This document shows positions 35,781-37,018 of a DNA stretch of 37,657 nucleotides, piece by piece. Every line of letters starts with the position of its first letter. The first letter of the stretch is position 1. The notes beneath the pieces were generated by a model, which searched no databases, was not told the origin of the DNA, and saw nothing but the letters and a program-made list of their open reading frames with translations. Origin of the DNA: a virus (taxonomy: Duplodnaviria > Heunggongvirae > Uroviricota > Caudoviricetes); IMG/VR virus record IMGVR_UViG_2516143071_000007. One strand, 5' to 3'. Both the position numbers and the translations under genes were made by a program.

Positions 35781-37018
35781 GGAAGGTGCGAACAAGTTCC
35801 TGATATGAGATCATCATATTCATCCGGAGCGCATCCCAGAGGGGACAGTCATGAGCCATCAACTCACCTTCGCCGATAGTGAATTCAGCACTAAAGCCGC
35901 CAGATCAGACCCGAAAAGAGATTTTCCCTCTCCCGCATGGAGCAGATTCTGCCATGGCAAGAATATGAACCGCTGTCATCGAGCCCGTTTTATCCCAAGG
36001 CGGGCAATGGCCGACGACGGCCCTATCCGCTGGAGAACCATGCTTGGCGTATTCAACTGCATGCAGCATTGGTACAACCTGAGCGACGGTGCCATGGAAG
36101 AATGCCCTGTACGAAATCGCCTCCATGCGCCTGTTTGCCCGATTATCCCTGGATAGCGCCCTGCCGGATCGCACCCACCATCATGAATTTCCGCCACCTG
36201 CTCGAGCAGCAATCAACTGGCCCGTCAATTGTTCAAGACCATCAATCGCTGGCTGGGCCGAAGCAGGCGTCATGATGACCCAAGGCACTTTTGGTGGATG
36301 CCACCATCATTGAGGCACCCAGCTCTACCAAGAACAAAAGAGCAGCAACGCGAATCCGGAGATGCATCAGACCAAGAAAGGCAATCAGTGGCACTTTGGC
36401 ATTGAAGGCCCACATTGGTGTCGATGCCAAGAGTGGCCTGACCCACAGCCTAGTTCACCACCCCGCGGCCAACGAGCATGACCATCAATCAGTTTGGGTA
36501 ATCCTGCCTTCATGGAGAAGGAGCAATTTGTCTCAGCCGATGCCGGCTACCAAGGAGCGGCCACAGGCGCGAGGAGGCTGGCCGAGGTGGGATGTGGACT
36601 TGGCTGATCGGCCGAGCGTCCCCGGCAGGTAAAAACCTTGAAGCAGCATCCGCGCAAGAACAAAACGGCCATCAACATCGCATAACATGAAAGCCAGCAT
36701 CCGTGCCAAGGTAGAGCACCCGTTTCGGCATCATCAAGCGGCAGTTCGGCTTCGTGAAAGCCAGATACAAGGGGCTGCTGAAAAACGATAACCAACTGGC
36801 GATGTTATTCACCCTGGCCAACCTGTTTCGGGTGGACCAAATGATACGTCAGTGGGAGAGATCTTCACTAAAAACTGGGGATAACGCCTTAAATGGCGAA
36901 GAAACGGTCTAAATAGGCTGATTCAAGGCATTTACGGGAAGAAAAAATCGGCATCAAAATGAAGAAATGAAATGACTGAGTCAGCCGAGAAGAATTTCCC
37001 CGCTTATTCGCACCTTCC
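35781..37018 (+). mobile_element. IS5-family insertion sequence, about 1.2 kb, with CTAG target-site duplication
   Basis: Terminal inverted repeats GGAAGGTGCGAA (35781) and TTCGCACCTTCC (ends 37018); CTAG at 35777-35780 and 37019-37022. Confidence 0.85.
35851..36912 (+). pseudogene. IS5 transposase (InsH-like) disrupted by multiple frameshifts
   Basis: InsH-like segments ([106 protein letters not shown]) are spread over at least three reading frames. Confidence 0.8.

What the first reader, a model, noticed from the sequence alone, without database searches (positions are those of the whole stretch)
35781..37018. Decayed IS5-family element with CTAG duplications 47 bp upstream of ogr
The element has intact terminal inverted repeats and a 4-bp CTAG target duplication, so it is a genuine transposition event. 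Its transposase is broken by many frameshifts, while every phage gene around it is intact. It ends 47 nt before the ogr start codon, so the native ogr promoter is displaced and ogr may now be driven from IS-internal or hybrid promoters. IS5 insertions are known to activate adjacent genes elsewhere in E. coli.
Basis: partly seen in the sequence, partly recalled or inferred. Interest (0 to 1): 0.5.

Follow-up and report, generated by a model that had tools for sequence, protein, structure and literature searches.

The report
Intact IS5-type insertion, mis-sequenced as decayed
A real and already reported IS5-family (ISKpn26) insertion sits just upstream of the late-gene activator ogr in a P2-like prophage of the 2011 E. 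coli O104:H4 outbreak strain, but its "decay" is an error of one draft assembly, because finished genomes of the same clone carry an intact copy at the same site.

Summary
The element is in the sequence as described. It spans 35781-37018 with 16-nt terminal inverted repeats and CTAG on both sides, and it ends 47 nt before the ogr ATG. The "decay" is not biological.

The window is the whole P2-like prophage "D" of E. coli O104:H4, taken from draft assembly GCA_000235205.1 (scaffold JH378048.1). Seven finished genomes of the 2011 outbreak clone carry the same insertion at the same CTAG, as an intact 1195-nt ISKpn26 with a 326-aa transposase. Isolates from 2009 have the empty site with a single CTAG.

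Outside the IS, all 36,419 nt of the window match those genomes exactly. Inside it there are 48 differences: 45 single extra bases, 2 missing bases and 1 substitution. They are scattered, and none lies in the outer ~60 nt at either end. That is a sequencing or assembly error profile in a repeat, not pseudogene decay.

The real insertion was already noted in 2012, when prophage D was measured 1,199 bp longer in 2011 strains. One modest point remains. The IS lies in the spacer of the putative ogr promoter. It removes the conserved −35 (TTGGAA) and puts TTCGCA from the IS end at the same 17-nt spacing. The effect on ogr expression is untested.

The parts
35777..35780 (.). Left copy of the CTAG target-site duplication
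   Evidence: The empty site in strain 2009EL-2071 has a single CTAG.
35781..37018 (+). ISKpn26 (IS5 family) copy, 1238 nt as recorded. The true length is 1195 nt. The record carries 45 extra bases, 2 missing bases and 1 substituted base.
   Evidence: The same insertion is intact in seven finished O104:H4 genomes.
35781..35796 (+). Left terminal inverted repeat, GGAAGGTGCGAACAAG
   Evidence: inverted repeat I1.
35851..36871 (+). Transposase reading frame (326 aa in the intact copy), split here into short ORFs by spurious single-base insertions
   Evidence: The intact copy scores 366.8 bits on NF033581, IS5 family transposase (cut-off 140).
37003..37018 (+). Right terminal inverted repeat, CTTATTCGCACCTTCC
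37019..37022 (.). Right copy of the CTAG target-site duplication
35765..35770 (+). TTGGAA, the putative native −35 of the ogr promoter, now 1.24 kb away from its −10
   Evidence: In the empty site it reads TTGGAA-17-TAAAAT. It aligns with the annotated P2 ogr −35. The block GTCAGTTGGARTC is conserved in three different upstream gene contexts.
37007..37012 (+). TTCGCA inside the right inverted repeat, a −35-like hexamer placed 17 nt from the resident −10 (candidate hybrid promoter)
   Evidence: This is a consensus match only (9 of 12).
37030..37035 (+). TAAAAT, the putative −10 of the ogr promoter, kept next to ogr
   Evidence: It aligns with the annotated −10 of P2 ogr and is conserved in all relatives aligned.
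37066..37326 (+). ogr/Delta-like zinc-finger late-gene activator, 86 aa
   Evidence: Pfam PF04606 Ogr_Delta, RefSeq name, weak hit to PRK09678.
34422..35591 (-). DUF3800 gene, an accessory gene between tail gene D and ogr. Its intergenic region with ogr holds the IS target.

Best explanation
The region is one intact copy of ISKpn26, a 1195-nt IS5-family insertion sequence with a single 326-aa DDE transposase. It transposed into a CTAG in the DUF3800–ogr intergenic region of the P2-like (P88-type) prophage 'D' in the lineage that caused the 2011 E. coli O104:H4 outbreak, duplicating the CTAG. The many frameshifts are not in the bacterium. They are consensus errors of one draft assembly (GCA_000235205.1, scaffold JH378048.1), in which the interior of this multi-copy repeat was filled with low-accuracy sequence, while unique DNA and the outer ~60 nt of the IS were called accurately. 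By inference, the filling came from insertion-prone long reads that short reads could not polish in a repeat. Biologically, the IS sits in the 17-nt spacer of the putative sigma-70 ogr promoter, 7 nt upstream of the −10. It separates the conserved −35 TTGGAA from TAAAAT and puts TTCGCA, from the IS right end, at the same spacing. My best guess (inferred, about 45%) is that ogr is still transcribed from this hybrid promoter, probably more weakly because the TTG triad is lost. Read-through from the co-oriented IS may add to it. Shown here: the identity of the IS, its site and duplication, its lineage distribution, the error pattern and the promoter geometry. Inferred: the sequencing technology at fault and any effect on ogr expression.
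For: (1) The same locus (DUF3800 | IS | ogr) in FDAARGOS_349 has an intact 1195-nt element and transposase WP_000019440.1. Seven finished 2011-lineage genomes contain both junctions at 100% identity, and none of the other 5,419 genomes does.
(2) Window positions 1-35780 and 37019-37657 are identical to O104:H4 references, with 0 differences in 36,419 nt. The IS has a minimum edit distance of 48 (45 extra, 2 missing, 1 substitution).
(3) The rate of extra bases per base is flat across run lengths, and none of the 11 runs of 4 nt or more changed. 38 of the 45 extra bases duplicate a neighbouring base. No difference lies in the outer ~60 nt of either end (P about 0.005).
(4) Natural divergence between ISKpn26 and IS5 is 62 substitutions against 4 indel bases.
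(5) The source contig was identified and is identical to the window. The broken ORFs are singletons on that one contig.
(6) Scaffold accessions JH378062/63, close to the source's JH378048, belong to the Broad O104:H4 ALLPATHS-LG assemblies (PMC3551546). The Broad recipe of that period combined Illumina reads with Pacific Biosciences reads to patch gaps and repeats (PMC3483556).
(7) Ahmed et al. 2012 list prophage D as 37,620 bp in 2011C-3493 and TY2482 against 36,421 bp in the 2009 strains. The difference of 1,199 bp equals 1195 + 4, and they attribute it to mobilisation of an IS element (PMC3486847).
(8) Promoter geometry.
(9) IS5 oriented towards a downstream operon can be transcribed through into it (PMC11894529).
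Against: I could not read the raw reads of the source isolate, so a real change in that one isolate is not formally excluded. I could not inspect other IS copies in the same assembly to show that they carry the same kind of error (searches did not reach them). The sequencing platform of this particular assembly is inferred from neighbouring accession numbers and a methods paper, not documented for it. For the promoter part, all sites are consensus matches. The number of promoter-like hits in the region is not above the shuffled expectation (3 found against 1.7 ± 1.2). The support comes from alignment to the annotated P2 ogr promoter and from conservation, not from transcript mapping.
Confidence: 0.93

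Rival explanations
1. Genuine decay: in this isolate the IS copy really accumulated dozens of frameshifts and is a dead relic.
For: The ends and the target duplication are intact.
Against: The insertion arose after the split between the 2009 and 2011 lineages, because the empty site in 2009 strains is otherwise 100% identical. There has been no time for 48 mutations, and the flanks show none in 36 kb. The 45:2:1 ratio of insertions, deletions and substitutions is unlike natural IS divergence. Seven clonal finished genomes have the intact copy. The broken ORFs are unique to one contig. The clean ~60-nt margins at both ends have no biological rationale.
Confidence: 0.02
2. Collapsed-repeat chimera: the odd sequence is a consensus of several diverged IS5-family copies of the genome merged by the assembler.
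For: IS5-like elements are multi-copy in O104:H4, with 4 places per 2011 chromosome and 3 on the pAA plasmid. Repeats are where assemblers merge copies.
Against: Diverged copies differ by substitutions (62 substitutions between ISKpn26 and IS5), and the window copy has only one substitution against the local intact copy. Merging copies does not create 45 single-base insertions.
Confidence: 0.03
3. Functional rival A: the insertion effectively kills the ogr promoter, so prophage D of the outbreak clone cannot switch on its late genes and is locked in the chromosome.
For: The conserved −35 block with its TTG triad is moved 1.2 kb away, and the replacement TTCGCA lacks the G at position 3. ogr cannot be co-transcribed with the tail operon, which lies on the other strand. 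No contractile-tailed particles were reported after induction (PMC3486847).
Against: Contractile-tailed particles were not reported for the 2009 strains with the empty site either, so that observation does not discriminate. The hybrid site scores the same 9 of 12 as the native one. Read-through from the IS is possible (PMC11894529).
Confidence: 0.3
4. Functional rival B: ogr is now driven mainly by transcription that starts at or upstream of the IS left end and reads through the whole element, as in IS5-activated fucAO.
For: The IS is oriented towards ogr. No terminator-like site lies on the + strand between the transposase gene and ogr, and a promoter-like site TTAACG-17-TATGAT (with TG) at 35625-35653 points into the IS. 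Precedent: the fusion promoter Pfsn drives fucAO through IS5 (PMC11894529).
Against: The IS5 transposase promoter is described as otherwise inactive, and in fucAO it needs a Crp site directly upstream. No such site was sought or shown here. Constitutive ogr expression should switch on lysis genes and be harmful, yet the clone is fit.
Confidence: 0.15

Closest known systems
ISKpn26 / IS5 (IS5 family, IS5 group)
   Same: 16-nt terminal repeats starting GGAAGGTGCGAA. Target CTAG with a 4-bp duplication. The intact copy at this locus is 1195 nt with a 326-aa DDE transposase named 'IS5-like element ISKpn26 family transposase'. It differs from canonical IS5 of phage P1/lambda KH100 by 66 edits (about 94.5% identity).
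   Different: The window's record of it is 43 nt too long and has no intact transposase frame. This is an artefact of the record, not a variant of the element.
IS element in prophage D of 2011 O104:H4 strains (Ahmed et al. 2012, PMC3486847)
   Same: Same prophage, and the same 1,199-bp length difference between 2011 and 2009 strains, attributed there to mobilisation of an IS element.
   Different: The passages I read give no exact site, no IS name and no mention of the ogr promoter. Those details come from this analysis.
Bacteriophage P2 ogr promoter (annotated in NC_001895)
   Same: The −10 TAAAAT lies about 30-34 nt upstream of the ATG, with a TTG-containing −35 about 17-20 nt further up. 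The −10 block aligns across P2, P88, phage 500465-2 and this prophage.
   Different: Here ogr is 86 aa (72 in P2). It is separated from gene D by a DUF3800 accessory gene on the other strand, and the tail operon is on the opposite strand, so P2-style late co-transcription with the FETUD operon is not possible.
IS5-mediated activation of neighbouring genes (fucAO fusion promoter, glpFK, bgl, flhDC)
   Same: Insertion at CTAG upstream of a gene, in the same orientation as the downstream gene, as in all fucAO-activating insertions (PMC11894529).
   Different: In those cases the IS lands well upstream of an intact promoter. Here it splits the −35 from the −10. No phenotype or expression change is known.
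Unpolished long-read or gap-patch errors in repeats of hybrid draft assemblies
   Same: Errors are confined to a multi-copy repeat and dominated by single-base insertions that often duplicate a neighbouring base, with accurate sequence wherever unique-anchored short reads reach (method described in PMC3483556).
   Different: The platform used for this specific assembly was not verified.

Membership tests
IS5 family insertion sequence (ISKpn26/IS5) | Imperfect terminal inverted repeats of about 16 bp (GGAAGGTGCGAA...) | tested here: met
   Arms 35781-35796 and 37003-37018, one mismatch.
IS5 family insertion sequence (ISKpn26/IS5) | 4-bp target-site duplication at a C(T/A)AG/A target | tested here: met
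   CTAG on both sides. A single CTAG in the empty site of 2009EL-2071. Target consensus from PMC11894529.
IS5 family insertion sequence (ISKpn26/IS5) | One uninterrupted DDE transposase ORF (about 326 aa) and total length of about 1195 bp | tested here: not met
   In the window as recorded the element is 1238 nt and the frame is split into ORFs of 113 aa or less. In the same insertion in finished genomes the feature is met: 1195 nt, 326 aa, NF033581 at 366.8 bits against a cut-off of 140. The failure is attributed to sequence error.
IS5 family insertion sequence (ISKpn26/IS5) | High nucleotide identity to a named reference element | tested here: met
   All but 48 edits (45 of them spurious insertions) match the ISKpn26-annotated copies. 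The intact copy differs from canonical IS5 by 66 edits. No ISfinder reference was available, so the name rests on RefSeq annotation.
Genuinely decayed (pseudogenised) IS relic | Mutation spectrum like natural divergence (mostly substitutions, deletions at least as common as insertions) | tested here: not met
   45 insertions, 2 deletions and 1 substitution, against 62 substitutions and 4 indel bases between natural copies.
Genuinely decayed (pseudogenised) IS relic | The decayed state is shared by close relatives and the flanks show matching age | tested here: not met
   Seven clonal finished genomes have the intact copy. The flanks show 0 differences in 36,419 nt. The broken ORFs are singletons.
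Ogr/Delta late-gene activator | Small zinc-finger protein with a CX2C...CX4C motif that matches the family model | tested here: met
   Pfam PF04606 Ogr_Delta is on record for the product. The sequence reads C4-x2-C7 ... C32-x4-C37. The NCBIfam P2-Ogr equivalog scores only 44.8 bits against a cut-off of 116, so this is a family member but not a P2 Ogr equivalog.
IS-generated hybrid promoter | An outward −35-like hexamer in the IS end, 16-18 nt from a resident −10 | tested here: met
   TTCGCA (37007-37012), 17 nt, TAAAAT (37030-37035), 9 of 12 matches. This is a consensus match only.
IS-generated hybrid promoter | Transcripts start at the hybrid promoter | not testable with these tools
   This needs 5' RACE or dRNA-seq. 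A dRNA-seq data set for outbreak isolate LB226692 was mapped to the chromosome, but only the pAA plasmid was analysed (PMC5066232).

The most novel reading that the evidence does not exclude
The intact ISKpn26 insertion, unique to the 2011 outbreak lineage among 5,426 complete E. coli genomes, splits the −35 from the −10 of the promoter of the prophage's sole late-gene activator. It thereby measurably rewires prophage D. Either the prophage is locked in place because the late genes can no longer be switched on, or ogr is placed under a hybrid or IS-driven promoter with altered regulation.
Probability: 0.35. Interest if true: 0.3.

Novelty: already known. Interest (0 to 1): 0.1.

Why it matters
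The main value is as a caution. An apparently "decayed" mobile element inside an otherwise perfect prophage turned out to be a repeat-specific error in a 2011 draft assembly, and the broken ORFs have entered public protein databases as singleton "transposases". Any scan for pseudogenised IS elements, or for IS decay as a sign of domestication, should filter out changes that are insertion-only and confined to repeats.

Biologically, the real event is an ordinary IS5-family insertion that marks the 2011 O104:H4 outbreak lineage. Its position inside the ogr promoter spacer gives a small, testable hypothesis about the competence of prophage D. The 2009 isolates serve as natural near-isogenic controls, since they are identical across the 25 kb of the prophage compared here (window 12658-37657) apart from the insertion.

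Tried and rejected
- An exact search for an error-containing 32-mer in the viral contig collection found nothing, so the window is not from that collection.
- I searched 5.8 billion proteins with a frameshifted ORF, hoping to find equally broken IS copies elsewhere in the same assembly. Only the source protein came from that assembly. The next-best hit (P0003) was a broken IS5 on an unrelated plasmid, CP063760.1. The assembly-wide prediction therefore remains untested.
- Looking up contigs that encode the identical Ogr did not surface sibling draft assemblies, but it did reveal the variety of genes upstream of ogr.
- I looked for a shared operator between the early control region (1901-2060) and the ogr upstream region. 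No shared word of 8 nt or more was found, and 7-mers were at chance level, so there is no evidence that the IS removes a repressor site.
- The slightly better-scoring plasmid copy (pHUSEC2011-2) simply has one extra base of its own and is annotated as a 'programmed frameshift'. It is not informative.
- Literature searches for the assembly accession, for 'ogr promoter' and for 'P2-like' with O104 returned nothing. Grad et al. 2012 is not held in the library.
- MAFFT with costly gaps gave a misleading 43 insertions and 29 substitutions. The minimum-edit alignment gives 48 edits in total.
- Loci L003 and L005 never reached the Python sandbox, so the window was compared with L004 (positions 1-19000), L002 (12658 to the end) and L001 (the IS ± 300 nt) instead.

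Full report
**1. The observation**

Reading 35500-37657 shows GGAAGGTGCGAACAAG starting at 35781 and CTTATTCGCACCTTCC ending at 37018. CTAG lies immediately outside on each side, at 35777-35780 and 37019-37022. The repeat finder reports this as a 20-nt inverted repeat that is 95% complementary. The ogr-like ORF starts at 37066, so 47 nt separate it from the IS. Inside the element no long ORF survives; the longest pieces are 101, 112 and 113 aa.

**2. What the element is, and where the window comes from**

Megablast against 5,426 complete E. coli genomes gives ISKpn26, an IS5-like element, as the best match. It covers 100% of the query at 96.1% identity, and the hits are 1195 nt long against 1238 nt here.

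The chromosomal hit in O104:H4 strain FDAARGOS_349 lies between a DUF3800 gene and an ogr/Delta-like gene. That is the same locus as in the window, and there the transposase is an intact 326-aa protein, WP_000019440.1. The annotated region shows that the window is the complete P2-like prophage between btuC and ihfA, ending at the stop codon of a hok/gef gene.

An exact-protein look-up of the broken 101-aa ORF found one contig only: NCBI GCA_000235205.1, scaffold JH378048.1, an E. coli O104:H4 strain. The retrieved locus is identical to the tail of the window.

**3. The decay is an artefact**

- Outside the IS, the window is base-for-base identical to finished O104:H4 genomes. Positions 1-19000 match FDAARGOS_349, and 12658-35780 and 37023-37657 match 2009EL-2071. 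The 300 nt on either side of the IS match FDAARGOS_349. In total there are 0 differences in 36,419 nt.
- Inside the IS, the minimum edit distance to the intact copy at the same site is 48: 45 extra bases, 2 missing and 1 substitution. If differences were spread evenly over the window, the chance that all 48 fall in the IS is about 1e-71.
- The spectrum is unlike natural divergence. The intact ISKpn26 differs from canonical IS5 by 62 substitutions and only 4 indel bases.
- The extra bases are scattered at a flat per-base rate: 24 at single bases, 10 at doublets, 4 at triplets, and none at the 11 runs of 4 nt or more. 38 of the 45 duplicate a neighbouring base. No difference lies in the outer ~60 nt of either end (P about 0.005). 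This fits a repeat interior filled with insertion-prone reads, with the ends corrected by accurate reads anchored in unique flanks.
- Both junctions occur at 100% identity in seven finished genomes, all of the 2011 outbreak lineage: FDAARGOS_349, FDAARGOS_403, C227-11, HUSEC2011, 2011C-3493, FWSEC0009 and an rpoS mutant derivative. All seven gave identical alignment scores over 25 kb, with the IS 1195 nt long.
- Isolates from 2009 and several other strains have the empty site with one CTAG and otherwise 100% identity. The insertion is therefore only a few years older than the outbreak, which leaves no time for decay.
- The three broken ORFs are singletons on one contig among about 15 billion catalogued proteins.

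On the likely cause: scaffold accessions JH378062/63, close to the source's JH378048, are Broad Institute ALLPATHS-LG assemblies of O104:H4 isolates (PMC3551546). The Broad recipe of that period, which cites the O104:H4 study, patched gaps and repeats with Pacific Biosciences reads and then improved the patches with Illumina fragments (PMC3483556). That this is what happened here is my inference; I could not check it for this assembly.

**4. Already in the literature**

Ahmed et al. 2012 list prophage D as 37,620 bp in 2011C-3493 and TY2482, against 36,421 bp in the two 2009 Georgian strains. The difference of 1,199 bp equals 1195 + 4. They attribute the variation in prophage D to mobilisation of an IS element, and they note that the 2011 strain has a unique IS profile (PMC3486847). 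In the passages I read, the insertion is known only at that level. The exact site and its relation to ogr are not discussed there.

**5. Relation to the ogr promoter**

A consensus scan of the empty site finds TTGGAA-17-TAAAAT directly upstream of ogr. The P2 reference genome annotates −35 and −10 signals upstream of ogr. In an alignment, the P2 −10 (TAAAATG) and the TTG of its −35 fall on the same columns as TAAAAT and TTGGAA here.

Among prophages that encode the identical 86-aa Ogr but carry different genes upstream, the −10 block is invariant. The block GTCAGTTGGA(A/G)TC is conserved behind three unrelated upstream genes (DUF3800, a 478-aa ORF and a 340-aa ORF). Phages in which gene D abuts ogr have different sequence at that position.

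The CTAG target lies in the spacer, so the IS separates the −35 (now at 35765-35770) from the −10 (37030-37035). The right end of the IS supplies TTCGCA at the same 17-nt spacing, and this site scores the same 9 of 12 as the native one. The new hexamer lacks the G of the TTG triad, so on general promoter knowledge I expect a weaker promoter. This is inference.

The transposase gene points towards ogr, and no terminator-like site on the + strand intervenes. IS5 in this orientation is known to be transcribed through into a downstream operon in the fucAO case, though there it depends on a Crp site at the upstream junction (PMC11894529).

I found no sign of a shared repressor operator between the early region and the ogr upstream region. 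No contractile-tailed particles were reported after induction of either 2011 or 2009 strains (PMC3486847), so existing data do not say whether the insertion matters.

**6. Verdict**

The IS, its target duplication and its distance from ogr are real. The decayed transposase is an assembly artefact (confidence about 0.95). The real insertion is an ordinary ISKpn26 event already noted for this outbreak lineage.

What remains is a small hypothesis: the −35 of the ogr promoter has been replaced by the IS end. The 2009 strains would serve as natural near-isogenic controls, since across the 25 kb of the prophage compared here they differ only by the insertion. Interest is low.

Noticed in passing
window 37517-37657 (+): A 46-aa Hok/Gef-family toxin ORF sits at the right end of the prophage, downstream of ogr, and the window is cut exactly at its stop codon. 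The same gene follows ogr in P88 and phage 500465-2 (annotated there as 'MokW-like host killing').
   Followed up: partly
window 34331-37065; loci L011-L020, L008, L009: The slot between tail gene D and ogr is a hot spot for accessory genes among prophages that encode the identical 86-aa Ogr. It can be empty (L011, P88) or hold a DUF3800 gene of 389 or 360 aa, a 478-aa ORF with no Pfam hit, or a 340-aa ORF. All of these lie on the strand opposite to ogr.
   Followed up: partly
window 26759-33063 (−) versus 33221-34330 (+): The tail sheath-tube-tape measure-U operon and a serine O-acetyltransferase gene lie on the opposite strand to the tail-fibre genes, gene D and ogr, unlike the co-linear P2 order. 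P88 shares the sheath-on-minus, D-on-plus arrangement. RefSeq annotates D with a shortened start (267 aa), whereas another gene call gives 369 aa.
   Followed up: no
window 4525-4599, 4635-4722, 26480-26678 (+): Three Rfam matches reach their gathering scores: isrK Hfq-binding RNA (63.5 bits), C4 antisense RNA (76.5 bits) and IS009 (192.4 bits). The IS009 match overlaps the 3' part of the tail-fibre assembly gene.
   Followed up: no
window 8385-9663 (+) and 18655-20535 (+): ParM and a partition/stability protein gene lie inside the prophage, which suggests a possible plasmid-like maintenance module. A 626-aa DUF6645 ORF is inserted between the lysis genes and the tail genes.
   Followed up: no
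window 35625-35653 (+): A second promoter-like site, TTAACG-17-TATGAT with an extended-−10 TG, lies in the DUF3800–ogr intergenic region and points towards the IS left end and ogr. It is a consensus match only.
   Followed up: no
public protein databases (EHF41652.1, WP_162749917.1, WP_162749918.1): The frameshift-generated ORFs of this mis-sequenced IS are catalogued as singleton 'transposase' or 'hypothetical protein' entries. A protein search with one of them also brought up many other singleton broken IS5 fragments from other assemblies.
   Followed up: partly
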